A stretch of 37,689 nt of DNA from a virus. Its lineage: Duplodnaviria > Caudoviricetes. This document shows positions 1-37,689 of this stretch, in pieces (position 1 is the stretch's first letter; every line of letters starts with the position of its first letter). A model generated the notes under the pieces. The model had not been told where the DNA came from and did not search any database. It was given only the letters and a program-made list of their open reading frames with translations. Location: IMG/VR virus record IMGVR_UViG_3300014613_000055, positions 1 through 37,689 of that record; one strand, 5' to 3'. A program made the position numbers and the translations under genes.

Positions 1-129
1 AAGAAAATAAAAAGCTGTTGCGATATACACAATAAAAATAAATGCGGTGTTGTAAATGGTGATGGTCGTGTTTGGAGATGTTGCAACGCTTGTGAAGAAC
101 CAGTCAAGAAAGCAGGTGAACAAGAATGA
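1..129 (+). CDS. C-terminal part of a Cys-rich small protein that wraps the window ends (starts at 37639)
   Basis: Frame 1 open to TGA at 127-129 (KKIKSCCDIH...RCCNACEE...); ATGA overlap with ORF 126. Confidence 0.7.
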   Translation, partial: KKIKSCCDIHNKNKCGVVNGDGRVWRCCNACEEPVKKAGEQE

Positions 130-347
130 GTGCAAATAATGTAATTTATATTAAAAGAGATACTTTTGAGGTTTTCTATCAAGGTTGTGCAGACAATGAC
201 GACCTTGGAACTAAAATAGGTAAGGGTAAGAACCTTGAAGAAGCGGTGGATATTGCCTACGAATATATGGGTGATGACCCGATGTTTATGCTTGAATATG
301 GTATTAATTTTATTCCAAAAAAACTAAATAACAAAGGAGAATTATAG
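126..347 (+). CDS. Hypothetical phage protein (73 aa)
   Basis: ORF track; coupled to upstream stop; GCAGGTG SD-like upstream. Confidence 0.7.
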   Translation: MSANNVIYIKRDTFEVFYQGCADNDDLGTKIGKGKNLEEAVDIAYEYMGDDPMFMLEYGINFIPKKLNNKGEL

Positions 348-413
348 AGAATGATACTTATTACTTTCGAAACATTTATGTCAGGAATTTCGAAACGAGG
401 AGAATTATAGAGA
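336..413 (+). repeat. 15-bp direct repeat GGAGAATTATAGAGA (336-350, 399-413) bracketing a 19-codon mini-ORF
   Basis: Seen directly; TTTCGAAAC also occurs twice between the copies. Confidence 0.85.
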
Positions 414-435
414 TGAAGAAAGAGGGTGATAATAT

Positions 436-791: not shown

Positions 792-911
792 ATGAAGAAA
801 ATTAAAATAATAAGAATTGAATTTAATAATGGGGGATATGTTGAAACAAATGATATTTTATTGGTTGAGAAGATATTCAAAATAATTAAGAAAGCAGAGA
901 AAGCAACTTAA
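792..911 (+). CDS. Small hypothetical protein (39 aa, MKKIKIIRIEFNNGG...)
   Basis: Read manually; GGAGG SD; stop TAA lies inside the CTTAAC repeat end. Confidence 0.55.
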   Translation: MKKIKIIRIEFNNGGYVETNDILLVEKIFKIIKKAEKAT

Positions 912-1252
912 CAAGGGTTTTGGTTGGTCGGGGAGAAACTCAGTAGCTACATAATTCGTTTGAGTCTAAGGACGTTGAAAACATTATGAAAATACGCTGG
1001 ATATAGCTTCCCGCCCATCTAAAGCTCTGGTTGAGGGTTTCTTAGAGCATAGACGGCAGAGTAAGGCAATAAAGTGAGAGCCGTCCCATTGTAGCCTTGC
1101 ACATAATTGGGGTCTCTATGCTCTAACAAGCTCTGGTTATATCAACTTAACAAGGGTTTCTTAGATTGGTGGACGTTGCCCTAATGAAATAAGGCAATGC
1201 CAATTCCTTCGGGGATTGAAATTTACACCTCCACCAATCTGCCAATCTCTTG
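907..1252 (+). repeat. Tandem array of three long-stem elements with conserved ends and variable interiors (914-1028, 1034-1134, 1151-1252)
   Basis: CAACTTAACAAGGGTTT at 904 and 1143; AGGGTTTCTTAGA at 1034 and 1153; AAGCTCTGGTT at 1022 and 1128; each unit closes a ~20-23 bp imperfect stem. Confidence 0.85.
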
Positions 1253-1262
1253 AAAGGAAAAG

Positions 1263-1673
1263 ATGAATAAGATTACAAAACACGCCGGAGGGCGACCAAC
1301 CAAGTACACGCCTGATATATGGCCGAAAATAAAGAAGTATTTATCTATGTGTGGTAGGGAGAACATGGCATTACCAACAGTAGAAGGATTAGCAATTCAC
1401 TTAGATGTTACTAGCGAAACGATAAGACAGTGGGCTACCAAATATAAAGAGTTTTCTTTGACAATAAAAAAACTAGCAGACAAACAGAAGGAGCAATTAA
1501 TGAATGATGGTATGTATGGAGGGAAAGAAATCAATCAGGCAATGGCTATATTTTTACTCAAAGTAAATCACGGAATGAACGAAGGGCCAAACACATTAAT
1601 CCAAGTCAATGTCAAACCAATATTAGGAGGTGCAAGTGTTCAAAGAAGTAACAGCGACCAAGAAACTGCTTAA
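1263..1673 (+). CDS. terS: Terminase small subunit
   Basis: GRPTKY N-terminus, HTH-like PTVEGLAIHLDV..TIRQW, AIFLLK motif; directly upstream of and overlapping terL. Confidence 0.85.
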   Translation: MNKITKHAGGRPTKYTPDIWPKIKKYLSMCGRENMALPTVEGLAIHLDVTSETIRQWATKYKEFSLTIKKLADKQKEQLMNDGMYGGKEINQAMAIFLLKVNHGMNEGPNTLIQVNVKPILGGASVQRSNSDQETA

Positions 1674-2808
1674 ATTAAAAAAGAGAATAAGAGGCATAGC
1701 CGGTGGCACGTCAGCATCTAAAACTGTCTCTATCTTACTTATCTTAATTGACCTAGCACAATCAACTAAGGGTAAATTAATATCGGTAGTATCTGAATCA
1801 TTCCCTCACTTGAAGAGAGGGGCGATTAGAGATTTCCTTAACATAATGGAAGCACACAATTACTTTCAGCCGAAGAGTTGGAACAAGACCGATTATATTT
1901 ATACATTTCCGAAAGGATCAAGGATAGAGTTCTTCTCAGCAGACCAGCCAGGCAAAGTACGAGGGCCAAGAAGAGATGTATTATTCTTGAATGAGGCAAA
2001 CAACATATCTTACGAAACATATACACAGTTGGAAGTTAGAACGAAAGAAATTATATGGCTAGACTGGAATCCAGTGAGTGAATTCTGGTGGTACGAAGAA
2101 GTATTAGGAAAACAAGATTGTGATTTTCTTACATTAACTTACTTAGATAACGAGGAATTGGATCCAAACATAGTCAAAGCTATCGAAGTACGCAAGGGAA
2201 GCAAGAATTGGTGGAAAGTATACGGATTAGGTCAATTAGGGGAAGCAGAAGGGAGAATCTTTACTGATTGGAAGATGATAGACGAAGTACCTCACGAAGC
2301 TCGCTTAGAACGATATGGTATGGACCTTGGCTATTCTAATGACCCTACCTCGATAGTGGCGATATATAAATACAACAACGGAATCATATTAGACGAAATA
2401 GCTCACTTGAAAGGATTATCAAACAAACAAATAGCAGACATATTACTAAATGCACCTAGAGCATTAATCATAGCCGACAGCGCAGAACCTAAAAGTATTG
2501 ACGAAATAAGAATGCACGGACTAAGCATACAGCCATCTCAAAAGGGTCAAGGATCAGTCTTACAAGGCATCCAATGGGTACAACAGCAACGAATAAGCGT
2601 AACCAAGAGAAGTCTTAATATCTTAAAGTCATATCGTAACTATTTATGGGAAACCGACAAAGAAGGTAAAATAATCAACACACCCGAACATATATTTAGC
2701 GATGCTATGGACGCTATAAGGTACGGAATGGAAAGCCTTAGACCACAAGATGACGACAACTACGACATACCAGATGATACTAGAATGTTTGACAAAGGAT
2801 TCTATTGA
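1630..2808 (+). CDS. terL: Terminase large subunit, PBSX-like
   Basis: Walker A GGTSASKT, Walker B LFLNEAN, DWNP, nuclease motifs GMDLGYSNDP, DSAEP, DAMDAIRY. Confidence 0.95.
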   Translation: MQVFKEVTATKKLLKLKKRIRGIAGGTSASKTVSILLILIDLAQSTKGKLISVVSESFPHLKRGAIRDFLNIMEAHNYFQPKSWNKTDYIYTFPKGSRIEFFSADQPGKVRGPRRDVLFLNEANNISYETYTQLEVRTKEIIWLDWNPVSEFWWYEEVLGKQDCDFLTLTYLDNEELDPNIVKAIEVRKGSKNWWKVYGLGQLGEAEGRIFTDWKMIDEVPHEARLERYGMDLGYSNDPTSIVAIYKYNNGIILDEIAHLKGLSNKQIADILLNAPRALIIADSAEPKSIDEIRMHGLSIQPSQKGQGSVLQGIQWVQQQRISVTKRSLNILKSYRNYLWETDKEGKIINTPEHIFSDAMDAIRYGMESLRPQDDDNYDIPDDTRMFDKGFY

Positions 2809-3035
2809 TGAAATATGAACTGTCCATTTCAGACCACAACAAACAAGCCCACATTGACCTTGAAGACGATATTAAATCAAGAAAGAATGGGCTACTTACT
2901 TTTACCTTACGAGTTAATAAAGGAAACATTGTTGATTACAACTTAACAGAATATGTCAACGCCAAACAAAAATACCTTAGCCTTAAACGAGTTATTGTCA
3001 GCGAATTTGTCGTTACACGCAATCGTGGAGAATGA
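2805..3035 (+). CDS. Small protein with DUF2292/YezD-like pattern
   Basis: GLLTFTLRVNKGNIVD beta-hairpin pattern; similar to the next ORF. Confidence 0.6.
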   Translation: MMKYELSISDHNKQAHIDLEDDIKSRKNGLLTFTLRVNKGNIVDYNLTEYVNAKQKYLSLKRVIVSEFVVTRNRGE

Positions 3036-3150
3036 AGTAAGACAGACCCCCTTTGGTCAAATAACATTTACGGTGTCTTTAGTAGACGGTGTTGCGTTAA
3101 TAGACACTCTTAATATAGTAAAGAATAGAAGGAGAAGGTATAAGGGTTGA
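2953..3150 (+). CDS. Small basic protein with DUF2292/YezD-like pattern
   Basis: FGQITFTVSLVDGVALID pattern, RRRRYK tail. Confidence 0.6.
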   Translation: MSTPNKNTLALNELLSANLSLHAIVENEVRQTPFGQITFTVSLVDGVALIDTLNIVKNRRRRYKG

Positions 3151-8000: not shown

Positions 8001-8768
8001 ATGAAAGCATACATAACAGGATCGAACGGATTTATAGGAACACACCTCAAAAAGAGGTTGGATAACTTCGTTGCTATTCCCCACAAAGAGATTAGATCAA
8101 TCAAACTAGAACCCTACGACAATTTTTACTTCTTATCAGCTTATGGGAACATGGCTTTCCACGATGAAGACGAAAAGATACTCCAAGCAAACATCCTCGA
8201 CCTAATCAGTATCCTCAAACAGCACAAGAAATTTAAGTCATTCGTCTACGTTAGCACTTCAAGCGTTAGATTGCCAAGACAGACAATGTATTCAAGAACC
8301 AAGAAAGCAGCCGAGGAAATTTTATTGTCATTTATGGAGAAATATGACGTTCCTATCTGCATAGTTAGACCATTTTCGGTTACTGGTGTAGGTGAACAGA
8401 AAGAACACTTAATTCCCTCACTGATACGTTCCTGTATTGACGGAGATCAGATGAATTTTGTACCAGGGCCAGTCCACGACTTTATAGATGTAGAAGATGT
8501 GGTTGATGGAATTGTTAATTTATCTTCTCACTCCGCAAGAGGGATATATGACTTAGGAACAGGCAAACAGGTTTCCAATCAAACAATATTAGAAATCGTC
8601 CAAGAAGTTACCGGCAAGACGGCAAATATCAATGTTATCAAAAAAATGAGGGACTACGACACAAACGAGTGGGTTTCACTCAACTACAAAGCAAGAGGGT
8701 ATGGTTGGCTTCCCAAAAAAGGATTACAGCAATCTATTGAAGAAATGGTGAAGGAGTACAAGAAATGA
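8001..8768 (+). CDS. NAD-dependent NDP-sugar epimerase/dehydratase (extended SDR)
   Basis: TGSNGFIG, STSSV, YSRTK, RPFSVTG, DFIDVEDV motifs. Confidence 0.92.
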   Translation: MKAYITGSNGFIGTHLKKRLDNFVAIPHKEIRSIKLEPYDNFYFLSAYGNMAFHDEDEKILQANILDLISILKQHKKFKSFVYVSTSSVRLPRQTMYSRTKKAAEEILLSFMEKYDVPICIVRPFSVTGVGEQKEHLIPSLIRSCIDGDQMNFVPGPVHDFIDVEDVVDGIVNLSSHSARGIYDLGTGKQVSNQTILEIVQEVTGKTANINVIKKMRDYDTNEWVSLNYKARGYGWLPKKGLQQSIEEMVKEYKK

Positions 8769-9379
8769 ATGAGTTAGAAAAAAGAATAATTGAAATTAGT
8801 TATAAACACAAGCTATCCCATCTTAGCTCTTGTTTGACATCGGTTAATTTGATTGATGCGATATATAAGTCCAAGAAAAAGGATGAACCATTCATTCTAA
8901 GTAATGGACACGCAGCTCTCGCCTTATATGTAGTATTAGAAAAGTACGAAGGCAAAGATGCTGAGAAATTATATGATAAACACGGCACGCATCCCAATAG
9001 AAACTTAAAAGATGGTATTTATTGTTCAACTGGATCACTAGGACAAGGACTGACTATTGCTGTGGGTATGGCTTTGGCTGATAAATCAAGAAATGTCTAT
9101 GTAATGAGTTCTGATGGTGAAATGGCCGAGGGAGCTTGTTGGGAGGCACTAAAAATCGCTTCAGGGCTTAGGATTGAGAATTTAAGGCTAACTGTGAACG
9201 CTAATGGCTACACGGCTCTAGGTAGAACAGATTCCGACCTTTTAGACTTGAGGTTGCAGTTCTTTTACCCTTGTTTGGTGATTAAGACTAACCTATTCGG
9301 TTGGCCTGATTGGTTGCAGGGAGTTGATGGACATTATGTAGTTATGGATAAAGAAATGTACGAGGAGGTAATGAAATGA
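8765..9379 (+). CDS. Transketolase-like ThDP enzyme, N-terminal subunit
   Basis: LSNGHA, STGSLGQG, SDGEMAEG...N ThDP motif. Confidence 0.92.
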   Translation: MNELEKRIIEISYKHKLSHLSSCLTSVNLIDAIYKSKKKDEPFILSNGHAALALYVVLEKYEGKDAEKLYDKHGTHPNRNLKDGIYCSTGSLGQGLTIAVGMALADKSRNVYVMSSDGEMAEGACWEALKIASGLRIENLRLTVNANGYTALGRTDSDLLDLRLQFFYPCLVIKTNLFGWPDWLQGVDGHYVVMDKEMYEEVMK

Positions 9380-9528
9380 AAACAATTAGAACCATAATAA
9401 ATCACCTTGAGGCTATGCACTTTGCAAACGCACAGTCTCCGCAAAATGAAAAAGCAGAAGGGTATAAACAAGCCCTTGATGATGTTCTCGCTTGGTTAAA
9501 AGGATATGAAAAAACACAACAGTATTAG
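9376..9528 (+). CDS. Small hypothetical protein (50 aa) between the transketolase halves
   Basis: Read manually; ATGA overlap; GAGGAGG SD; GYKQALDDV helix. Confidence 0.55.
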   Translation: MKTIRTIINHLEAMHFANAQSPQNEKAEGYKQALDDVLAWLKGYEKTQQY

Positions 9529-10006
9529 AGGTTGGTTTGCTTACGAGCTTTACCAACAAATGAAGAAGAATAAGGACATTTACCTTATTACACCAGATTT
9601 GGGGTATAAAATGCTTGACAAAATCAAGGAAGACTATCCCGACAGATTCTTTAATGTGGGAGCGTCAGAACAAGCTGCCGTAGGCATAGCAATAGGGCTA
9701 GCACAAGAGCAAAAAATACCTTTTGTTTATTCGATAACACCATTTCTATTATACAGGCCCGCAGAGTGGATTAGAAATTATCTCCACAAAGAAAATGCCA
9801 ACGTCAAATTAGTAGGAGCAGGAGTTGGAAAGGATTACAAAGAGGACGGATTTACTCATTGGTCGGATGAGCCTTACAACACACTAATAAGCAGATGGCC
9901 GAATATCAGACAGTTTTGTCCTAACGAGAAAGAAGAATTGCCGAAAATAGTTGAAGAAATGGTAAAGAACAATAAACCAAGTTTTTTACATTTGAGGAGG
10001 AGGTGA
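9506..10006 (+). CDS. Transketolase-like enzyme, pyrimidine-binding subunit
   Basis: DLG, RFFNVGASEQ, GLAQE..IPFVYS, GFTHW motifs. Confidence 0.92.
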   Translation: MKKHNSIRGWFAYELYQQMKKNKDIYLITPDLGYKMLDKIKEDYPDRFFNVGASEQAAVGIAIGLAQEQKIPFVYSITPFLLYRPAEWIRNYLHKENANVKLVGAGVGKDYKEDGFTHWSDEPYNTLISRWPNIRQFCPNEKEELPKIVEEMVKNNKPSFLHLRRR

Positions 10007-10012
10007 TGAGAA

Positions 10013-10186
10013 GTGATTAGAAGAAAGAAGATTACAAAAGCGGAAATAGAAGAGTTAAAGAATTTATTGCTACCAGAGACACAGCGAGATGATGCTGGAA
10101 TACTCGAATTAGCAACAGCAGCTCTTGTTAGCGATTTGCACAAAAACAAAATATCAAGAATAAGAGCATTGGTAAATAAACTTTGA
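10013..10186 (+). CDS. Small hypothetical protein (57 aa)
   Basis: Read manually; GTG start after GGAGGTG; fills the gap and overlaps the next start. Confidence 0.5.
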   Translation: MIRRKKITKAEIEELKNLLLPETQRDDAGILELATAALVSDLHKNKISRIRALVNKL

Positions 10187-11046
10187 TGAATAATGAATAC
10201 TTAATGTTTAGGCACACGCTTTCTAAGGACAAGTACAAAGTACCCATAAAGTACGAGGATAAGGTCAAGAGAGTTGACCCTGATGTTATAGAAAGCAAAC
10301 TAAGGAGTAAGGGTAAAGCAATCTTCCTAAGCGGAGGATTGGATAGTTCGTTATTGGCGGCAATTAACAAGCCCGAAAGAGCCTATACAGCACTATTCTT
10401 TGATGAGGATGGCGAAAGGGAGTGGCTTTGGGCAAGAAAGGTCGCAGACCGCTTGGACATTTCCCTCATTCCTGTAGGCATTACAAGAGAAAGATATTTG
10501 TCAACACTAGAATACCTAATTAAACAAAAAGGAGACGGACTTCATCCCAACGAACCCTGTCTTTACCTAATGGCACTTCAGGCCAAGAAAGACGGATTTG
10601 ACACAATTATATCCGGTGAGGGTGCAGACGGGTTGTTTGGAGGCTATACCGACTTACTAATAAACGAAGATAAGATTATGAAGGATGAGCCTACTTTTAG
10701 AAAAAGATACCTACAAATAGATACAGGCGATCCAATTCCCTTTGAGAAGTGGCGAGAATGGGGAATGTATCGATTTTTACTAGAAGTTCACACACCAGGA
10801 TTAATAGATAGAGCGGTCAATGCTTGCAACTCAGCAGGAATGAAAGTAGAGTTTCCTTACCTAGAGAATGGCATACCTCAGTTAATGTGGAACGCTCCAA
10901 TGGGACAGAAGATAGACAAGCCCATTCTAAAAGAGATCGCTAACAAGTATTTACCAAGAGAAATCATTTACAGGAAGAAAGTTGGGTTCCCTGTTCCCTG
11001 GGACACTAAAGAGTTCTTATTCCTAAATAAGGAGATATGCGTGTAG
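10183..11046 (+). CDS. Asparagine-synthase-like N-type ATP pyrophosphatase (no glutaminase domain)
   Basis: LSGGLDSS PP-loop, SGEGADGLFGGY, KKVGFPVP. Confidence 0.9.
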   Translation: MMNNEYLMFRHTLSKDKYKVPIKYEDKVKRVDPDVIESKLRSKGKAIFLSGGLDSSLLAAINKPERAYTALFFDEDGEREWLWARKVADRLDISLIPVGITRERYLSTLEYLIKQKGDGLHPNEPCLYLMALQAKKDGFDTIISGEGADGLFGGYTDLLINEDKIMKDEPTFRKRYLQIDTGDPIPFEKWREWGMYRFLLEVHTPGLIDRAVNACNSAGMKVEFPYLENGIPQLMWNAPMGQKIDKPILKEIANKYLPREIIYRKKVGFPVPWDTKEFLFLNKEICV

Positions 11047-11423
11047 GTTATACAACAGGCGTGTTTGATATGTTTCATATCGGGCACCTTAATATTTTGA
11101 GAAACGCCAAGGCTATGTGCGACAAGCTAATAGTAGGTGTCTCTACTGATGAATTAGTCAAAGAAAAAGGCAAGAAATGCAAGATACCATTTGAACAAAG
11201 AATTGAGATAGTCAGAAACATTAAATTCGTTGACTTGGCAGTTCCCCAAGCAACAACCAACAAACGACATGAGTGGGAGAAATTAAGGTTCAATATCGTA
11301 TTCGTAGGTGATGATTGGTTTGGCAACAAAGAGTGGAATAAATATGAGAGCGAGTTAAGTAAGGTGCAATTTATCTATTTCCCATATACGAAAGGAGTCT
11401 CATCAACAAGTTTACGAAAATAG
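11037..11423 (+). CDS. Cytidylyltransferase, TagD/glycerol-3-phosphate type
   Basis: GVFDMFHIGH (HIGH), GVSTDE, VGDDW, YTKGVSST. Confidence 0.93.
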   Translation: MRVGYTTGVFDMFHIGHLNILRNAKAMCDKLIVGVSTDELVKEKGKKCKIPFEQRIEIVRNIKFVDLAVPQATTNKRHEWEKLRFNIVFVGDDWFGNKEWNKYESELSKVQFIYFPYTKGVSSTSLRK

Positions 11424-11467
11424 AGCAACATTTAATAGACACAACCGAATATCTGAAAAGCATCGGC

Positions 11468-11959
11468 TTGACTACTTTTTTGATTGGATCTACTTTGTTG
11501 CAAATAGTTAGGAATGGAGAATTCAAGGAACGCCATCAGTTTGACAGAGAGATAAACGTGGGCTGCAAAGAAGAGGACTTTACGCCAGCCATGAGAGAGA
11601 GAATTACCAAGGACTTTAAGAGAACTGAGTGGCATGATGGTTTTTGTCTTTTTGGTAATCAAGATGATACCTTTTGGCAGGGCGAAGGGTCATATTTTTC
11701 CCTGCTTGGAAAATTTAAGATATATAAAAACGATAGAGTTGAAAACATGGGGATAGGGAATTATTTAGTTTGGCCGAAAAAACATTTGAAAACACTAAAA
11801 CAGATTAACTATAAGGGTTATACGTTCAATGTTCCTAATTATAGATTTAAGTGGCTAGAACATTATTACGGTAAACATTGGGAGGAAGAAGATTTATCTT
11901 GGAATTGGTCAAATGCTGCAAATCTTAAAAAAGTTTCAGAAAATTCAGATTTGGGGTGA
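11468..11959 (+). CDS. LicD-family phosphotransferase
   Basis: GSTLLQIVRNG..FDREINVG resembles LicD GTLLGAVR..DDDID; YKGYTFNVP..LEHYYG C-terminal motif; next to a cytidylyltransferase. Confidence 0.72.
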   Translation: MTTFLIGSTLLQIVRNGEFKERHQFDREINVGCKEEDFTPAMRERITKDFKRTEWHDGFCLFGNQDDTFWQGEGSYFSLLGKFKIYKNDRVENMGIGNYLVWPKKHLKTLKQINYKGYTFNVPNYRFKWLEHYYGKHWEEEDLSWNWSNAANLKKVSENSDLG

Positions 11960-12630
11960 TTATGATGAAGAAAAAAATAGAGTTAAATGCGTTATTCTAC
12001 CCAGGAGGAAATGTCAAATTTGAAAGTTTGTATATACCGTATATATACAGGGAAATATACTTTGAAGGAATATATCAGAACCTTGTCGATAATTTCAAAG
12101 ATATGGTTGTTGTTGATGTAGGAGCAAACATTGGCATTGTTACTCAATATCTAAGAGACTACGCCAAGAAGTTATATGCCGTTGAGCCTTCAAGTGAACA
12201 TTTCGAAGCTCTCAAGAAGAACAAAGAATTTAACAAGTGGGACAACGTAGAAGTATTTAACGTAGCGATAGCTGATAAAGATGGCGAGATGGACTTTCAT
12301 ATCAATACAACGAATAGAACTTGTCATAGTTTAACTCAAGATATAGGTTTCGGTTATACCGATACTGAAAAAGTTAAAACGATGGCGATGGACTCATTCT
12401 TCAAGGAAAACAAGATTGGGGAAGTGGATTTTATGAAGTTTGATGTGGAGGGAGCAGAAGATATGATTTTACGAAGCGAAGGATTTGCCAAAGTTGCACC
12501 CAAGATTAAGAGAATCATGGTTGAGTTCCATCATCCAACATGGCCTAAATTAGTACAACATATGAGCACATTGGGCTACACAGCAAACAGATATGAAAGT
12601 TCGGCAGTGGTTGTTTTATTTTCAAGATGA
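11956..12630 (+). CDS. FkbM-family SAM methyltransferase
   Basis: VDVGANIG, AVEP, FMKFDVEGAE, VEFH. Confidence 0.93.
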   Translation: MIMMKKKIELNALFYPGGNVKFESLYIPYIYREIYFEGIYQNLVDNFKDMVVVDVGANIGIVTQYLRDYAKKLYAVEPSSEHFEALKKNKEFNKWDNVEVFNVAIADKDGEMDFHINTTNRTCHSLTQDIGFGYTDTEKVKTMAMDSFFKENKIGEVDFMKFDVEGAEDMILRSEGFAKVAPKIKRIMVEFHHPTWPKLVQHMSTLGYTANRYESSAVVVLFSR

Positions 12631-13274
12631 AGTTCAAAAACAAATTAATGTGGTTGAATACTGGTAACGGAACGGCGGGGTATCAACTCAATCTCATGGA
12701 GTATTTGATGACAAAGTTTCGCAAAGACTTTGTTGTTTTGGAAGTGGGAAGTGCCTATGGGGGGGCTGTCGAGATGATGACGCAGGTTGCAAACCATGAA
12801 TTGGGTAGGGAAAACGTGTCTGTTTATGGATACGATACTTTTGAAGGACACCCCAAGGATTTGGCCGATGATCCGAACAGTATGGAAGCAAAAGTCATGG
12901 ATGAATGGTACACAACGGAAGGGTGCGAAAAAGACAAGTTATCTTACGATTATCAAAGAAAGATACTCGATGATTTGGGCTTAACCAACGCTCATCTAGT
13001 TAAGGGTCGTGTAAACAAACACTCATTTGACGATATTAAGAAAGTTCACCTGGCAATGCTGGACATGGATTTAGTAAAACCAACCAAGGTGGCTTACCAC
13101 GCATTAAAAGACAAAATTGTTAGTGGTGGTTTTATGATGTTCCACGATGCCTACCCACCAGAACACCTACCACTTCTTTACGACTTTGTTAAAAATGAAG
13201 TTATAACGGATGAAAGATGGAGACTTGATGAAGTGTCTAGGGAAGGTTATTTTGTAGCATTAGAAAGAAAATGA
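12627..13274 (+). CDS. TylF/MycF-like sugar O-methyltransferase
   Basis: LEVGSAYGG, YGYDTFEG, LVKG, LDMDL, GGFMMFHD. Confidence 0.85.
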   Translation: MKFKNKLMWLNTGNGTAGYQLNLMEYLMTKFRKDFVVLEVGSAYGGAVEMMTQVANHELGRENVSVYGYDTFEGHPKDLADDPNSMEAKVMDEWYTTEGCEKDKLSYDYQRKILDDLGLTNAHLVKGRVNKHSFDDIKKVHLAMLDMDLVKPTKVAYHALKDKIVSGGFMMFHDAYPPEHLPLLYDFVKNEVITDERWRLDEVSREGYFVALERK

Positions 13275-14035
13275 AAGTAGTCTTTTTTACATTGGTTTCA
13301 GACGATTACTATTATCTTTGTGGAACACCACAATTTATCAATTCGTTTAAGTGGTTTCACCCAGATATTGATTTAGTCGTGTTTAGACAAGATATGGTAG
13401 ATAAGGTTTTCAAAAAGAAAGACATTAACTTCTACATGGCTAAACCTACTTTTGCCAAACTATTGACCCCACATTACGACTTAGTGGTCAATATAGATGC
13501 GGACAGCATTATTTTGGGAAGGTTAGATGAAATATTAAAAGGAGATTACGATATAGGTGGAGTTATGAACCTTAACGATTATGAGAACAGGACCATAGAG
13601 AACGTAAGCGAGGAGATGTACTTAAATGCCGGATTGATAGCTTCAACCAACAAGAAGTTTTGGGATATTTGGGAGAAGTCTAACAAAGACGCTATGAATT
13701 ATGTTTGCAAGGAAAACGACAAAATGAACCTTGTCATTTACAATGACCCCGAAGTAAAGAAAATGAAGTTAAAGGTTTTCGACAAAGAAAAAGATTATTA
13801 TGGTTGCAAGAGCCTTAATCGAGAGGGTGAGTTTTATGTAGCAGAAGAAAAAGTCTATGACACACCTACTACGAACGTAATGTGTCGAGATGAAAGAGTA
13901 TTTATTTATCATAACGCCAAGGGAGCGTTATTTCCCAAACTGAATTTTAGCAAGATGGGCTTCCCTCCTGAAGTTGTTAAGCGCATGAATGTTCTATCTA
14001 TGTATGGCAAGTCAGTTAGATATGGAGGATTTTGA
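13271..14035 (+). CDS. GT-A fold glycosyltransferase (GT8-like)
   Basis: NSFKWFHPD, IDADSII (DxD), YLNAGL, END..N, YHNA. Confidence 0.75.
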   Translation: MKVVFFTLVSDDYYYLCGTPQFINSFKWFHPDIDLVVFRQDMVDKVFKKKDINFYMAKPTFAKLLTPHYDLVVNIDADSIILGRLDEILKGDYDIGGVMNLNDYENRTIENVSEEMYLNAGLIASTNKKFWDIWEKSNKDAMNYVCKENDKMNLVIYNDPEVKKMKLKVFDKEKDYYGCKSLNREGEFYVAEEKVYDTPTTNVMCRDERVFIYHNAKGALFPKLNFSKMGFPPEVVKRMNVLSMYGKSVRYGGF

Positions 14036-14793
14036 AACATAGACCTTACAGTATAATGACACCGCCTTTTGAGCCGCTTTCGGGAGGTATTCGTGTCATG
14101 TATGGACTTTATGGGTGGTTGTTGGCAAAAGGGCAACTTGCTTACTTAAACGCTACTTTTGAAAGTCCGAACTTTGTTGCGGTTTATCCTGAGATTTATC
14201 AAGGCAATATCACGGGGTCTAACAACGTAGTTAGGTATATTCTTCAAACTCCTGGTGTTATGAATTTATATGGTGTTCCTGGCGAGACCACCTTCCCCAA
14301 GAATGACAAGATATTTGTTTTTTCAAAGATTTATGACACTTTTGGGGTAGATGATGACCATTTAATGTTCTTACCTATTCTTAACCTTCATTTATTCAAG
14401 GATTATGGGAAGAAACGCAAGAAAACCTGCTATATGGTGGGAAAAGGGGAAAACCAACACAATCACCCAGAACACTCATTTGAATTGACAAGAGAGTTTG
14501 CTTTAGATCAGAGAGCATTAGCAGACAAACTCAACGAGTGCCAAACGCTATATATCTATGATAGGTGTTCGGCAATGATGGAAATTGCTCGATTATGTGG
14601 GTGCAGGGTGAAATACTACGGGAACTTCAAAAAGGAAGATTTAGAAAAGTACGAGCCTGGAATGAACGGTATTACTTACAAAGATGAGGAAGATATACCT
14701 CTTGATGTGGATGCTTTCAATGAACACTATCGAGGAATGATTAAATTATTTGAGAAGAAATTAGACAAATTTATAGAAATAACCCAAAAATGA
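14032..14793 (+). CDS. Putative glycosyltransferase-like protein
   Basis: SGGIRVM start, VYPEI..GN....VVRY, YD..SAMMEIARLCGC; GT-B-like; cluster context. Confidence 0.6.
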   Translation: MKHRPYSIMTPPFEPLSGGIRVMYGLYGWLLAKGQLAYLNATFESPNFVAVYPEIYQGNITGSNNVVRYILQTPGVMNLYGVPGETTFPKNDKIFVFSKIYDTFGVDDDHLMFLPILNLHLFKDYGKKRKKTCYMVGKGENQHNHPEHSFELTREFALDQRALADKLNECQTLYIYDRCSAMMEIARLCGCRVKYYGNFKKEDLEKYEPGMNGITYKDEEDIPLDVDAFNEHYRGMIKLFEKKLDKFIEITQK

Positions 14794-15338
14794 TAATGCT
14801 CAATTTAGGTTGTGGATTAAGGCAGCGAAAAGGATTTATAAATGTAGATAATTATGTGGAAAAATCGGGGAAAGCGAAATTCGTTAAGGCAGATATACGG
14901 AAGTTGCCTTTTGAGAACGATTATGCTGATTATGTTGAAATGATGAGCGTATTAGAACACATACCATTTAATGATGTGTTGAAGGTTCTAGCTGAGATTA
15001 GCAGAGTAATGAAGCCTGGAGCGGAATTGGTTATCCAAACAGAGAACTTTGACGGTATCGCTTTAGATTGGGCAAGAATGTGTATGGAAGGCTGGAACCC
15101 ACAAGAATATATGAATGTTATGGAAACAGTTTATGGCAATCAGAGACACGAAGGGGAATTTCACAAAACGGCTTTTAATCCAAGATTTATGGATGCTTGT
15201 TTAAGGGCAGTAGGATTCAGAATTAAAAGTATGGCAAACTATCCCAAAAACTCACCTATACCTGAATTCGGCACTGTTCCAGCAGACCCCAAAAGATTTC
15301 TAAGAAGCGACCAATTATTAGCAGTAGCAATCAAATGA
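14790..15338 (+). CDS. Class I SAM methyltransferase (Methyltransf_11-like)
   Basis: LNLGCG, DIRKLPF, VLEHI, RVMKPG. Confidence 0.9.
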   Translation: MIMLNLGCGLRQRKGFINVDNYVEKSGKAKFVKADIRKLPFENDYADYVEMMSVLEHIPFNDVLKVLAEISRVMKPGAELVIQTENFDGIALDWARMCMEGWNPQEYMNVMETVYGNQRHEGEFHKTAFNPRFMDACLRAVGFRIKSMANYPKNSPIPEFGTVPADPKRFLRSDQLLAVAIK

Positions 15339-15883
15339 AGAAATATCAAATAATTTATGCAGACCCACCATGGGCTTATAACGACAGGAGGAATAAACAC
15401 ACGAGGTTTTGTGGTGGAGCAATGGTTCATTACTCAGTAATGGATTACAAGAAAATAGGCAAGATTCCTGTTGAAGATATAGCAGATAAAGATTGCGTTC
15501 TGTTTTTATGGGCAACCTACCCCAATTTAATAGAAGCACTTTACACAATGGATGCATGGGGATTTGTTTACAAGACGATTGGGTTCAATTGGGTTAAAAC
15601 AAATAAAAATAATGGCAAACCCTTCTTTGGAATAGGTTATTACACTAAGTCAAATAGCGAGGCTTGTTTGATTGGAGTTAAGGGTAAGCCTAAAGTAAAA
15701 AGCAATTTTGTTTCTCAAGTTGTAATGTCTCCACGAAGAGCGCATAGCCAGAAACCAGACGAGGTTAAAGAGAAGATAGTTGAACTTATGGGAGACATTC
15801 CGAGGGTCGAACTATTCGCAAGACAAAAAACAAATGGTTGGGATGTATGGGGAAATGAAGTGGAAAGTGATGTAAAACTATGA
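15335..15883 (+). CDS. MT-A70-family N6-adenine methyltransferase
   Basis: IYADPPW, LFLWAT, HSQKP, ELFAR, WDVWGNE. Confidence 0.93.
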   Translation: MKKYQIIYADPPWAYNDRRNKHTRFCGGAMVHYSVMDYKKIGKIPVEDIADKDCVLFLWATYPNLIEALYTMDAWGFVYKTIGFNWVKTNKNNGKPFFGIGYYTKSNSEACLIGVKGKPKVKSNFVSQVVMSPRRAHSQKPDEVKEKIVELMGDIPRVELFARQKTNGWDVWGNEVESDVKL

Positions 15884-16971
15884 AGAAAATTAAAATATTT
15901 TGCCTTCCATCTCACCAAACTAAAGAAAGAACCTCCGGCGTAGATATGGTGAGGATAATTCAACCTATGCAACACTTAGACAAACACAAAGATTTCGAGG
16001 TTACAATATTTGACATACACAACAAAGACCACGATGATCCGACCAAAACAAGGTGGGACAACGTAGCTGAAGAACACGACATTATTTACCTTAATTATAT
16101 AGGTAATGCTTGGGCTTTTGCGGCGATGGGGGCAATGGCTCGCAAGTACAATAGGAAGATAGTTTTTGACCTTGATGATGACCTTTGGGGCATAGGAGAA
16201 GACAACCCTGCGTACAAGGTCTATCATACGGGGAGCGAAGCCTTAAAGAACTTTACCTCAATGTGCAACGAAGTAGACTATATGACTACTACCAATTTAT
16301 ACCTTAAACACGTAATCGCTCACAATACTTACAAGAAACACGACAAGATTAAGATATTTCCTAATTATATTGATTTCAAGCTATATAATCACAGACCCAA
16401 GTTCAAAGATACTCCCAAGATACAACTATTACACTTTGGATCAACAACTCATTTCCTTAGCTTACAAAATGAAGAATTTATGAAAGGAATAGACAAGATT
16501 TTCAAAGAATTTCCAAATGTTACTCTAAAGACTGTAGGTGCATTTCTTCCCAAGTACAAGGCCAAATGGGGAGAGAGATACGAGAACGCTCTAGGCCACC
16601 AAGATGTTTATAAGTGGATTAAAGATAAATTCCCAGGATATATGGATGAAGCAGATATTATAGTAGCTCCACTTGAAGACAATTTATATAACCGTTGCAA
16701 GAGTGATATTAAACGTACTGAGAGTGCAAGTGCCAAGAAACCATTTATTGGTCAAGACCTGAGACAATACAAAGAAGTCATAGATGATGGTGTAGATGGG
16801 TTTATTGCCGGAAGCGAAGAAGACTGGTATCAGAAGATTAGAGCGTTAATAGAAGACAAAAAGTTACGAAAGAGTATGGGTGAAGCCGGATTCAAACGAG
16901 TAAGTGAAACGAGGCAAATGAAAGACCACGTACAAGATTATGCGGATTTCTTCAAGGAGATTCTTTCCTAG
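15880..16971 (+). CDS. GT-B fold glycosyltransferase (GT4-like)
   Basis: RIIQP, FDLDDDL, FPNYID, DIIVAPL...NRCKSDIK, DGVDGFIA, LRKSMGE. Confidence 0.88.
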   Translation: MKKIKIFCLPSHQTKERTSGVDMVRIIQPMQHLDKHKDFEVTIFDIHNKDHDDPTKTRWDNVAEEHDIIYLNYIGNAWAFAAMGAMARKYNRKIVFDLDDDLWGIGEDNPAYKVYHTGSEALKNFTSMCNEVDYMTTTNLYLKHVIAHNTYKKHDKIKIFPNYIDFKLYNHRPKFKDTPKIQLLHFGSTTHFLSLQNEEFMKGIDKIFKEFPNVTLKTVGAFLPKYKAKWGERYENALGHQDVYKWIKDKFPGYMDEADIIVAPLEDNLYNRCKSDIKRTESASAKKPFIGQDLRQYKEVIDDGVDGFIAGSEEDWYQKIRALIEDKKLRKSMGEAGFKRVSETRQMKDHVQDYADFFKEILS

Positions 16972-31589: not shown

Positions 31590-31603
31590 CAAAGAAAAAG
31601 GCC

Positions 31604-31632
31604 TTGACAAAAATCTTGTAAGGCCTTAATCT
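31604..31632 (+). promoter_or_regulatory. Rightward promoter overlapped by an inverted repeat
   Basis: TTGACA-17 bp-TAATCT; palindrome AAGGCCTT at 31598 and 31620. Confidence 0.65.
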
Positions 31633-31656
31633 ATATTAAGTCTATTAATATGATTT

Positions 31657-31685
31657 ATTCTAACCCCCCAAACTCCATTTGTCAA
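31657..31685 (-). promoter_or_regulatory. Leftward promoter convergent with the 31604 promoter
   Basis: Minus strand TTGACA-17 bp-TAGAAT. Confidence 0.65.
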
Positions 31686-31711
31686 GAATTTCCGCATATT
31701 TTCCGCAATCT

Positions 31712-31940
31712 ACTGACCCGACCTAAACGGCAGTTCCACTAGGGACCGCAATACTAGCGGTATATAAAAGAAGGGTGGAAGCAGGGCAACGCATCGGAAA
31801 CATCAAACGGAGATGCAGGTCATAATGAACCATAGCTGGTATTACGGTGACACTCGAAGCGAAAGAGAAACCCGTTTACAAAAATCATTAACTGCTACTA
31901 GACCAGTCCTATATGGGACGCTTCGTTGCATAAAGCAGAG
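31712..31940 (+). ncRNA. Candidate multi-stem non-coding RNA or origin region
   Basis: ORF-free, GC-richer stretch; stems TTCCACT/GGTGGAA, ACCGC/GCGGT, GCATC/GATGC, TAATGA/TCATTA, GTCCT/GGGAC. Confidence 0.4.
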
Positions 31941-36587: not shown

Positions 36588-36866
36588 ATGAAGAAATTAC
36601 CGACATATCAATCTGATAAACTGATAGCTGAGTTTATTGTTGACAACCCTGACTATGCAAAGAAATATTTGAGAGCAACAATGCGAGAAACTAGACTCAA
36701 AGAGAGAAACATAGAAATTGCGATGCGATATATAACAAGTGACGAGAGCTACAAAGAAGTAGGTGAACATTACGGCTTAACACTAGAAAGAATAAGACAA
36801 ATTACACACAAACTCATGAGAGTGATTGGGGTTTTGTTAAGGAGAATAGAACGTAAGGTAGCTTAA
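36588..36866 (+). CDS. Sigma-70 region 4-like HTH protein
   Basis: SYKEVGEHYGLTLERIRQI closely matches the region 4.2 consensus. Confidence 0.82.
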   Translation: MKKLPTYQSDKLIAEFIVDNPDYAKKYLRATMRETRLKERNIEIAMRYITSDESYKEVGEHYGLTLERIRQITHKLMRVIGVLLRRIERKVA

Positions 36867-36941
36867 CAAGGGTTTTGGACTTGAGGTTATGAATGTCCGA
36901 AAGGAGTTTACGCCTCAAGCCTAAAGCTCTGGTTATATCAA
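36862..36941 (+). repeat. Fourth copy of the conserved-end stem element
   Basis: CTTAACAAGGGTTTTGG identical to 907-923; CTAAAGCTCTGGTT = 1019-1032; AAGCTCTGGTTATATCAA = 1128-1145. Confidence 0.9.
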
Positions 36942-37001
36942 TCTAACGGAAATATTGATATAAGAAAAAAATTATATCAATGGTCTGATATAGCGAGGCT
37001 A

Positions 37002-37273
37002 ATTAGTCGCACAAGCGACATTGTAAGACGGAGGTGAATAAAGATGGTATTAGACAGAAAAGCATATAAAGTAAATTTTGGGAGAGAGACTACTGTTGGT
37101 GATGTTTGTAGTGAAGATTCAAAAGTTGTGATTGCTGAAACAGCCGAAAGAGCTATTGAAATAGCAAAGGATTTATTATCAGCAAAAGAAAAGAAAGTAT
37201 ATTATGTTTCAGAAGTAGAAATGTTAATAAGCAAAATTGACGAAGATTAGTCGCATAACAACATTGTAAGACG
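37002..37273 (+). repeat. Imperfect ~28-bp direct repeat ATTAGTCGCA...ACATTGTAAGACG flanking one gene
   Basis: Copies at 37002-37030 and 37246-37273. Confidence 0.85.
37044..37250 (+). CDS. Hypothetical protein (68 aa)
   Basis: GGAGGTG SD; VIAETAERAIEIA beta-alpha pattern. Confidence 0.75.
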   Translation: MVLDRKAYKVNFGRETTVGDVCSEDSKVVIAETAERAIEIAKDLLSAKEKKVYYVSEVEMLISKIDED

Positions 37274-37279
37274 AATAAT

Positions 37280-37642
37280 ATGAACAAATTAAAAAAGATA
37301 ATAGAGTATGCGGCAGAGAGAGGGTGGAAGAAACCGTATAGAACAATGGATGCCGAAACTGTGATTGAAAGCGGTTGGGTAAAGTACATTCTCTTTGACC
37401 ACGACTTTGCAAAGGCTGTGTTTGGGGAGGGAATGGCTGTTGATTACACCAAATCGTGCCCACATTGTGGAGGAGACCTGAAAATTTCTAATCCTACTGG
37501 AAAATGTAGTCATATTTATTACCCCGAGGCCTGCGATGTTTGTTCTTCCTACTACATAGACTGGATTGACCACCTTCAACAAGCCGTTATTAGTAAAGAC
37601 CCAATAGATTATTATTACAAATATATAAGGAAATTAAAATGA
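37280..37642 (+). CDS. Hypothetical protein with Cys/His insert
   Basis: ILFDHDFAKAVFG; CPHC..C.H...C..C. Confidence 0.75.
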   Translation: MNKLKKIIEYAAERGWKKPYRTMDAETVIESGWVKYILFDHDFAKAVFGEGMAVDYTKSCPHCGGDLKISNPTGKCSHIYYPEACDVCSSYYIDWIDHLQQAVISKDPIDYYYKYIRKLK

Positions 37643-37689
37643 AGAACACAGAGAAGAAGAAATGTGAACTTTGCGAAAGGGAAGTAAAT
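37639..37689 (+). CDS. N-terminal part of the wrap-around Cys-rich protein
   Basis: ATG 37639, exactly 17 codons to the window end (MKNTEKKKCELCEREVN). Confidence 0.7.
   Translation, partial: MKNTEKKKCELCEREVN

What the first reader, a model, noticed from the sequence alone, without database searches (positions are those of the whole stretch)
936..1112. Interiors of units 1 and 2 form three-way junctions with complementary loops
Seen: unit 1 has hairpin ACTCA/TGAGT with CATAAT in its loop, and the exact complement ATTATG lies downstream (about 983). Unit 2 has hairpins GACGGC/GCCGTC and CCCA/TGGG whose loops carry GTAAGGC and GCCTTGC. The sequences differ but the topology is the same. Known: a three-way junction with loop-loop pairing is the architecture of purine riboswitches and of phi29 pRNA, where the pairing is intermolecular. 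Inference: these are folded RNAs, possibly oligomerising or acting as protein decoys. The position next to terminase is suggestive only, since pRNA is not known in terminase-type phages.
Basis: partly seen in the sequence, partly recalled or inferred. Interest (0 to 1): 0.75.

Follow-up and report, generated by a model that had tools for sequence, protein, structure and literature searches.

The report
Stem-framed swappable phage RNA cassettes
A groundwater phage and four related records carry one constant closing stem around seven unrelated folded interiors; the stem is likely cut by the host enzyme RNase III to release small RNAs of untested function, and only one of the two interiors flagged is predicted to form a real kissing-loop junction.

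Summary
Unit 2's two hairpins plus 7-bp loop-loop helix beat 999 of 1000 shuffles; unit 1's arrangement is chance-level (349 of 1000) and its second hairpin is weak. The real shared feature is the frame: a constant 7-pair core (AGGGUUU/AAGCUCU, two G·U pairs) closes four units in the window and one unit in each of four other records. Together they hold seven unrelated interiors, and the helix continues inward by pairing, not by sequence (75 of 84 cells paired). The + strand folds better in 8 of 8 copies, which favours RNA over integron attC sites. Outside this array the frame precedes GroES, an endonuclease VII or small genes, in phages with different terminases, so a pRNA role is unsupported. 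Best reading (0.55): host RNase III cuts the frame, releasing interchangeable small structured RNAs, probably protein decoys. An RNase III-compatible register falls on the invariant core in 7 of 7 units, but that rule is lax. No homologue of interior 1 or 2 was found, so loop covariation is untested, and no usable RNA-end data exist. No Rfam family matched.

The parts
907..1035 (+). Unit 1: frame (left core 914-920, right core 1022-1028) around a 100-nt interior; predicted released RNA 919-1025
938..965 (+). Unit 1 hairpin ACTCA/TGAGT; loop holds CATAAT (950-955) and an 8-nt palindrome (943-950)
   Evidence: not above chance
970..998 (+). Unit 1 weak second hairpin candidate with ATTATG (983-988) in its loop; in the minimum-energy fold CATAAT/ATTATG is an ordinary nested helix
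1030..1137 (+). Unit 2: frame (left core 1034-1040, fused to unit 1's right arm; right core 1128-1134); predicted released RNA 1039-1131
1053..1084 (+). Unit 2 hairpin P2 (5 bp, 1053-1057/1080-1084) with loop segment GTAAGGC 1061-1067
1085..1111 (+). Unit 2 hairpin P3 (1085-1088/1108-1111, extendable) with loop segment GCCTTGC 1094-1100; predicted 7-bp loop-loop helix with P2's loop
   Evidence: 1 of 1000 shuffles
1146..1258 (+). Unit 3: frame with a degenerate right arm running into the Shine-Dalgarno (1253-1258) of the terminase small subunit; interior is a plain three-way junction without loop pairing; predicted released RNA 1158-1247
36862..36938 (+). Unit 4: same frame (cores 36869-36875 / 36924-36930) around a hairpin interior that recurs unchanged in L032; predicted released RNA 36874-36927
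36932..36995 (+). TGATATA-rich hairpins after unit 4: probable remnant of a fifth unit whose left arm is fused to unit 4's right arm (ends in a frame right arm in L032 and G001), or operator sites
   Evidence: inference
792..911 (+). 39-aa ORF whose stop codon lies in unit 1's left arm
36588..36866 (+). 92-aa ORF with a Sigma70 region-4 HTH domain whose stop codon lies in unit 4's left arm
1263..1673 (+). Terminase small subunit, directly downstream of unit 3
   Evidence: phrog_606
1630..2808 (+). Terminase large subunit
   Evidence: phrog_2

Best explanation
The units are intergenic cassettes in which one constant closing helix encloses an exchangeable folded interior, and the helix is likely cut on both strands by host RNase III, which would release each interior as a 54-155-nt small RNA that likely acts as a decoy or ligand for host RNA-binding proteins. 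Shown: the constant frame, seven unrelated interiors, identical flanks around different interiors, + strand folding. Inferred: transcription as part of a long rightward polycistron; cutting after U12 and C11' of the frame (918/919 and 1025/1026 for unit 1; 1038/1039 and 1131/1132 for unit 2); exchange by recombination at the constant arms; a decoy role. Unit 2's interior is predicted to fold as an intramolecular kissing-loop three-way junction. Unit 1's interior is more likely an irregular rod. Cutting unit 3 would also set the 5' end of the terminase message just upstream of its ribosome-binding site.
For: Frame core (positions 8-14) paired in 48 of 49 cells with one pair type per column; positions 16-27 paired in 75 of 84 cells with 2-5 pair types per column, in ungapped register. 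Control: of 73 distinct matches to a degenerate frame pattern, the 2 known members have 10-11 of 12 inward pairs and the other 71 have 8 or fewer. Of 21 interior pairs, 1 reached p<0.05 (0.047) by local alignment. + strand folds better in 8 of 8 copies; G·U on + 21 times, on - once (13 of the 21 are the two shared core wobbles). One register meets E. coli RNase III preferences (G-C at the centre, no G-C next to it, A-U or pyrimidine mismatch at D/D'; PMC6212723 and PMC3867540) in 7 of 7 units, and D-D' (8-15) spans the invariant core. Exchange: G001 shares unit 4's right flank (87 nt, 93%) and unit 1's left flank (25 nt, 100%) around a different interior; L032 has unit 4's interior with unit 1's left flank. 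The frame starts with TTAACA, and 7 of 17 pre-16S leader-trailer stems of a small-genome phylum start with TTRRCA against 5.8% of other leader windows (motif picked after looking, host link unproven). RNase III was found in 58 of 61 genomes of that phylum.
Against: No RNA-end data: cutting, transcription and abundance are unshown. The register rule is lax (27-46% of order-shuffled helices pass) and the seven frames share ancestry, so it is one observation. The outer half has only 6-10 of 11 pairs (unit 2: 6), below the 22-bp ideal, so single-strand cuts or none are possible; unit 3 has U·U at the centre; units 1 and 2 compete for 1034-1035. The host is unknown: the terminase had no match at E 1e-40 in 401 sampled genomes. 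No target, partner protein or homologue of any interior except unit 4's was found. The family is small: five records, one of which (G001) occurs in the same run as the window's phage.
Confidence: 0.55

Rival explanations
1. The frames are cis-acting mRNA processing or translation-control sites, as in T7 early RNA. The interiors are folded spacers with no role once released; the left arm pairs with the anti-Shine-Dalgarno part of the right arm and so tunes the next gene.
For: In 3 of 8 copies the right arm runs into a Shine-Dalgarno and an ATG 12-17 nt on; in 4 of 8 an ORF of 39 aa or more stops inside the left arm. The right-arm plus SD motif alone precedes start codons in unrelated phages. 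Most T7 transcripts carry RNase III sites needed for optimal protein yield (PMC3867540 passage).
Against: Units 1 and 2 are followed by another unit, not a gene; three sites in tandem are more than processing needs; interiors of up to about 145 nt are elaborately folded, unit 2 beyond chance; unit 4's interior recurs unchanged in another record.
Confidence: 0.2
2. The units are integron attC-like single-stranded DNA recombination sites (a cluster without integrase); the interiors are variable terminal structures.
For: Left end matches RYYYAAC in 7 of 8 copies and overlaps a stop codon as in cassettes; GTT at the right end in 5 of 8. Such clusters occur in phages and recombine (PMC9892861, abstract and section 3.4).
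Against: Full GTTRRRY in 0 of 8, no GTT in 3 of 8; the top strand folds at least as well as the bottom in 8 of 8 with DNA parameters (unit 2 by only 0.1 kcal/mol), and G·T pairs lie on the top strand, opposite to attC sites (PMC5027507 passages); the would-be central spacer is paired and invariant; no tyrosine recombinase in 4 of 4 records; the frame pattern matched 0 of 401 sampled bacterial genomes, and the 2 hits in the whole genome collection had no closing stem on reading.
Confidence: 0.1
3. The frame is not cut but is a binding handle for a phage or host double-stranded-RNA-binding protein (Y RNA/Ro60-like or antiterminator-like), or the footprint of a tiny mobile element.
For: The 7-pair core is conserved in sequence including two wobbles, which pairing alone does not require. 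G-C next to a cut site can turn an RNase III site into a binding-only site (PMC3867540).
Against: No TROVE/Ro60, RNA-binding or transposase family among 69 proteins scanned against Pfam from the window and G001-G003 (not all ORFs were given) or 39 window proteins against PHROGs; no Y RNA match in Rfam.
Confidence: 0.1
4. Units 1 and 2 are pRNA-like RNAs that oligomerise through loop-loop pairing and serve the packaging motor.
For: Unit 2 has complementary loops on a three-way junction; the array lies directly upstream of terminase; L032's copy lies about 400 nt upstream of a terminase-small-subunit-like ORF (read, not scanned).
Against: The phage has a two-subunit terminase, whereas pRNA is unique to phi29-like phages and large terminase is considered its equivalent (PMC5066667). 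The frame precedes GroES (G001), endonuclease VII (G003) and a small ORF (G002) in phages with different terminase and portal families. No frame upstream of terminase in 19 loci of close TerS/TerL relatives. Unit 1 is chance-level.
Confidence: 0.03

Closest known systems
Bacterial RNase III double-cleavage stems: pre-rRNA leader-trailer helices (PMC10250234, passages) and T7 transcript sites (PMC3867540, passages)
   Same: A long helix formed by the two flanks encloses a folded RNA; register preferences are met at one position in all 7 units; the helix starts with the hexamer common at the start of pre-16S stems of one small-genome phylum.
   Different: Cargo is short, unrelated between copies and exchanged between phages; cutting is not shown; outer half is shorter than ideal.
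Integron attC sites and phage-borne CALINs (PMC5027507, PMC9892861)
   Same: RYYYAAC start overlapping a stop codon, constant ends with a variable interior, tandem array, no integrase nearby.
   Different: Right core site missing or degenerate, strand bias reversed, central region paired.
phi29 prohead RNA (PMC5066667, passages)
   Same: Three-way junction with complementary loops (unit 2 only).
   Different: Terminase-type phage, no conserved fold across copies, no fixed link to packaging genes, 7-bp helix between 22- and 19-nt loops.
Purine riboswitch aptamer (features recalled; Rfam searched)
   Same: Two hairpins on a closing stem with loop-loop contact (unit 2).
   Different: No Rfam match; no junction strand between the hairpins; long loops; no expression platform or metabolic gene downstream.
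RNA anti-CRISPRs / solitary repeat units (PMC10651486, passages)
   Same: Phage intergenic small RNA proposed as protein decoy; unit 3 ends in a repeat-like hairpin plus 8-nt tail (CRISPR-DR10, E=3).
   Different: Match is not significant; no array match in plasmids; the other interiors show nothing similar.
Phage T4/T5 small stable RNAs of unknown function (named in earlier scan notes; not read)
   Same: Stem-closed phage small RNAs without known function.
   Different: No tRNA or tRNA-like shell here; no shared sequence tested.

Membership tests
RNase III double-cleavage substrate | About 22-bp helix, 11 bp each side of the dyad | tested here: inconclusive
   Inner side paired to position 22-27; outer side 6-10 of 11 pairs
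RNase III double-cleavage substrate | G-C at the centre, no G-C next to the cut, A-U at D/D' | tested here: met
   Register 11/12 in 7 of 7; D' is a pyrimidine mismatch in 3 of 7; 27-46% of shuffled helices also pass
RNase III double-cleavage substrate | RNA ends with 2-nt 3' overhangs, dependent on rnc | not testable with these tools
   Only contigs, no raw reads
RNase III double-cleavage substrate | Host encodes RNase III | tested here: inconclusive
   58 of 61 genomes of a small-genome phylum have it, but the host is not identified
attC site | RYYYAAC at the start | tested here: met
   7 of 8 copies; unit 2 lacks it
attC site | GTTRRRY at the end | tested here: not met
   0 of 8 full, GTT in 5 of 8
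attC site | Bottom strand folds better and carries the G·T pairs | tested here: not met
   Top better in 8 of 8; G·T 21 top, 1 bottom
attC site | Extrahelical bases and unpaired central spacer | tested here: inconclusive
   A shifted register can be drawn by eye for units 2-3 only; spacer paired on the top strand
attC site | Recombined by IntI | not testable with these tools
   Needs attC x attI assay
phi29-type pRNA | Phi29-like phage with terminal protein and gp16-type ATPase | tested here: not met
   TerS and TerL
phi29-type pRNA | Conserved three-way junction with complementary loops across relatives | tested here: not met
   1 of 5 interiors tested passes; no homologue of unit 2
phi29-type pRNA | Intermolecular ring on the prohead | not testable with these tools
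   Needs virion RNA and native gels
Purine riboswitch | Rfam covariance-model match | tested here: not met
   No match at gathering score or to E 10
Racr / solitary CRISPR repeat (unit 3) | High-scoring match to a known CRISPR repeat | tested here: inconclusive
   Rfam CRISPR-DR10 E=3; no plasmid array match; the SRUFinder repeat set was not available
tRNA-like / Y RNA | tRNA-like module or Ro60 partner | tested here: not met
   ARAGORN 0; no TROVE among 69 proteins

The most novel reading that the evidence does not exclude
These phages carry a mix-and-match library of RNase III-released structured RNAs, built like miniature pre-rRNA stalks, each a decoy for a different host RNA-binding defence protein; unit 2 is a new kissing-loop three-way-junction fold that may also pair between molecules.
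Probability: 0.25. Interest if true: 0.85.

Novelty: new variant of a known kind. Interest (0 to 1): 0.55.

Why it matters
If true, phages diversify small structured RNAs the way they diversify small proteins: by swapping cargo inside a fixed processing frame. That would give a direct way to find RNA-based counter-defence factors (look inside frames), and supplies short, testable RNAs with predicted ends. Unit 2 adds a candidate compact pseudoknotted fold with no Rfam family. Unreviewed notes of this scan describe the same design with other frame sequences in other phages, so this locus is likely one more, independent-looking instance of an undescribed class, not a one-off. The pRNA link, which drove the first score, does not hold.

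Tried and rejected
Homologues of interiors 1-3: none in about 1.04 Mb of held loci by blastn-short and nhmmer, none in INPHARED phages or, for units 2 and 3, plasmids, so covariation of the loop pairing could not be tested. Collection scans for the frame: viral contigs (1 real of 3; 0; 1 of 6; 3 of 14; 3 known records among 90 loci; 2 known of 84); metagenome (5 hits: L031 = G001, L032, L035 = the window's own contig, 2 chance); genome contigs (0 real of 2). 'Real' was judged by closing stem and flanks. Relaxed frame scan: 7 exact frames in 231 kb of related loci, none in 985 kb of others, no convincing diverged frame; it misses unit 3. Sampled small-genome phylum: left-arm counts at control level; four loci read were coding or unrelated. 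RNA run X5: contigs cover 776-1114 (depth 15 and 8.5) but also scattered stretches elsewhere (depth up to 18.6), no listed piece covers unit 4, and contigs cannot show ends, strand or level; DNA carry-over is possible, so this is not used as evidence. No sigma-70 promoter or + strand terminator at the units. Rfam: nothing at gathering in the window or at the frames of related records (only tRNAs elsewhere in G003), nothing significant at E 10. Hammerhead, TPP and other ribozyme or riboswitch resemblances were considered by eye from recall and dropped: junction motifs are missing. Cross-unit loop pairing (unit 1 loop with unit 2 loop, 6 bp, 2.3% of shuffles, one of 28 comparisons) and the unit 1 palindrome (7.5%) are not significant. 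No antisense match to the phage's own genome at E<1. Atlas search of the upstream 116-aa protein gave nothing above the bar. Host naming by TerS homologues failed. One search located only 3 of 30 rRNA loci and was redone as (22 of 30 located, 17 stems counted). One search found my register rule met in 20 of 25 pre-16S stems, with several loci mis-oriented and output cut, so it is not relied on. PMC1540722 was seen only in a search listing.

Full report
Setting. The window is a 37.7-kb virus record (G000) with terminase small and large subunits at 1263-1673 and 1630-2808 and a major head protein. Runs holding half or more of the 780-1300 stretch are groundwater metagenomes (5 runs, 3 of them possible sources); run X4 holds long identical contigs. 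The host is unknown. The finding lies in a 350-nt non-coding gap between a 39-aa ORF (792-911) and TerS.

Checking the observation. Unit 2's hairpins share one base, leaving 5 + 4 pairs and a 7-bp loop-loop helix with one G·U. I scored the best hairpin/loop-helix/hairpin arrangement by stacking energy against dinucleotide shuffles of each interior (5 of 7 interiors tested, the two short rods left out). Unit 2: -32.3, 1 of 1000 shuffles as good. Unit 1: -18.2, 349 of 1000. Unit 3 and G001's interior have no such arrangement; G002's is chance-level (127 of 150). Conditional tests agree: for unit 2 the loop helix is matched by 1.2% and the two crossing hairpins by 0.8-0.9% of shuffles; for unit 1 by 30% and 27-30%. 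Adding the loop helix to the constrained junction gives -45.8 against a nested minimum of -39.4 for unit 2, and -39.5 against -39.7 for unit 1, before any pseudoknot penalty. So unit 2 is a good candidate, even after five tests; unit 1 is more simply a rod in which CATAAT/ATTATG is an ordinary helix. No pseudoknot-aware folder was available, and no homologue exists to test covariation.

What is conserved. Units 1-3 fold strongly on the + strand (z -4.7, -3.1, -5.2). They share arms, not interiors: the left arm occurs exactly at 907, 1146 and 36862, the right arm at 1021, 1127 and 36923, which reveals a fourth unit (z -4.4). Collection scans found four more records: G001 (L024), G002 (L039) and G003 (L046), and a metagenome contig L032. 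All other hits were chance on reading. That makes 8 copies and 7 different interiors; 1 of 21 interior pairs reached p<0.05 by alignment. In ungapped register the 7-pair core is paired in 48 of 49 cells with a single pair type per column, while the next 12 positions are paired in 75 of 84 cells with 2-5 types per column. Chance matches to the frame pattern reach at most 8 of 12 inward pairs (71 of 73). Flanks and interiors are reassorted: G001 has unit 1's left flank and unit 4's right flank around its own interior, and L032 has unit 4's interior unchanged. The region is full of repeated inter-gene linkers at which contigs branch, so exchange by recombination at short constant sequences is a reasonable inference.

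RNA or DNA. The left end matches the attC inverse core RYYYAAC in 7 of 8 copies and holds a stop codon of a 39-92-aa ORF in 4 of 8, and attC clusters exist in phages (PMC9892861; abstract and section 3.4 read). But the right core GTTRRRY is complete in 0 of 8 and lacks GTT in 3 of 8; the top strand folds better in 8 of 8 with RNA and DNA parameters; G·T pairs lie on the top strand 21 times against 1 (13 are the two shared core wobbles), whereas attC sites carry them on the bottom strand (PMC5027507, passages). No tyrosine recombinase was found in 4 of 4 records, three of them incomplete, and the frame was not found in 401 sampled bacterial genomes. The frame therefore works like an RNA helix and fails attC membership.

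Packaging. The frame precedes GroES in G001, an endonuclease VII gene in G003 and a small ORF in G002, phages with different terminase and portal families, and is absent upstream of terminase in 19 loci of close TerS/TerL relatives, some with little upstream DNA. pRNA is described as unique to phi29-like phages (PMC5066667, passages). A pRNA role is unlikely.

Mechanism. A helix formed by the two flanks, fixed in sequence over 7-8 central pairs and needing only pairing further in, is the anatomy of an RNase III substrate: about 22 bp, G-C preferred between the cuts, G-C inhibitory next to them, A-U at D/D' (PMC6212723, passages and one results section; PMC3867540, passages and section 7). One register satisfies these in 7 of 7 units, and its D-D' span (8-15) coincides with the invariant core. 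Against: 27-46% of order-shuffled helices also have a register, the frames share ancestry, and the outer half has only 6-10 of 11 pairs. The frame starts with TTAACA; in an unnamed phylum of 0.4-2.1-Mb genomes, 7 of 17 pre-16S leader-trailer stems start with TTRRCA against 5.8% of other leader windows, and 58 of 61 genomes encode RNase III. That motif was picked after seeing the data and the phylum is not shown to be the host, so it is a lead. Predicted products: 919-1025, 1039-1131, 1158-1247, 36874-36927. A tandem array of three, with two units not followed by a gene, suggests that the interiors are the product. What they do is inferred: no antisense target in the phage, no riboswitch or ribozyme match, compact varied folds and free exchange fit decoys or ligands for host proteins, as shown for RNA anti-CRISPRs (PMC10651486, passages). 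I put this at 0.55, cis-processing only at 0.2, attC at 0.1, uncut binding handle at 0.1, pRNA at 0.03. The one RNA run does not decide anything (see Tried and rejected).

Novelty. No Rfam family matches. Ten literature searches returned no description of this frame or of exchangeable RNA cargo in phage RNase III stems; most were seen as listings only, the library lacks most subscription papers, and no supplements were read. Eight unreviewed notes of this scan describe the same design in other genomes; I had this reading before seeing them, did not test their claims, and do not count them as support. Interest 0.55.

Noticed in passing
window 36932-36995; G001 898-960; L032: Four alternating TGATATA half-sites follow unit 4; may be a remnant fifth unit or an operator for the adjacent Sigma70_r4 HTH protein.
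   Followed up: partly
window 37639-37689 and 1-130: An ORF starting at 37639 runs in frame into position 1, where G001 has the matching open frame: the genome is probably circular, placing unit 4 about 1.7 kb upstream of unit 1 on the same strand.
   Followed up: partly
window 1187-1222: Unit 3 ends in a hairpin plus 8-nt tail resembling a CRISPR repeat (Rfam CRISPR-DR10, E=3).
   Followed up: partly
window 943-956 and 1091-1108: Unit 1's first loop and unit 2's second loop share GTAGC...ACATAATT; not significant against shuffles (p 0.35).
   Followed up: yes
L054, L076, L086, L094, L140: The right-arm plus Shine-Dalgarno motif precedes start codons in unrelated phages without a left arm; it can fold as a small SD-sequestering hairpin.
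   Followed up: no
window 105-430, 37030-37050; G001 100-670; L032: Repeated inter-gene linkers (GGTGAATAAGAATG, GGAGAATTATAGAG) separate small genes; contigs of run X4 branch at them, pointing to module shuffling.
   Followed up: partly
window 37002-37032 and 37247-37277: A second repeated ~30-nt intergenic element (TTAGTCGCA...CATTGTAAGACG), also seen as a loose end in run X4.
   Followed up: no
L004 389-485, L006 947-1043, L011 967-1098, L013 1747-1831, L017 1714-2106: Other long intergenic stem-loops with different closing sequences upstream of related terminase genes.
   Followed up: no
window 8001-16971: Block of sugar-modification genes (epimerase, split transketolase-like pair, nucleotidyltransferase, methyltransferases, glycosyltransferase) between capsid and tail genes; G002 has a similar block.
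   Followed up: no
G001 1049-3043: Phage-encoded GroES and GroEL directly downstream of the frame.
   Followed up: no
window 31590-31940: A 350-nt non-coding stretch with hairpins between the metallophosphoesterase and the small-gene region; not analysed.
   Followed up: no
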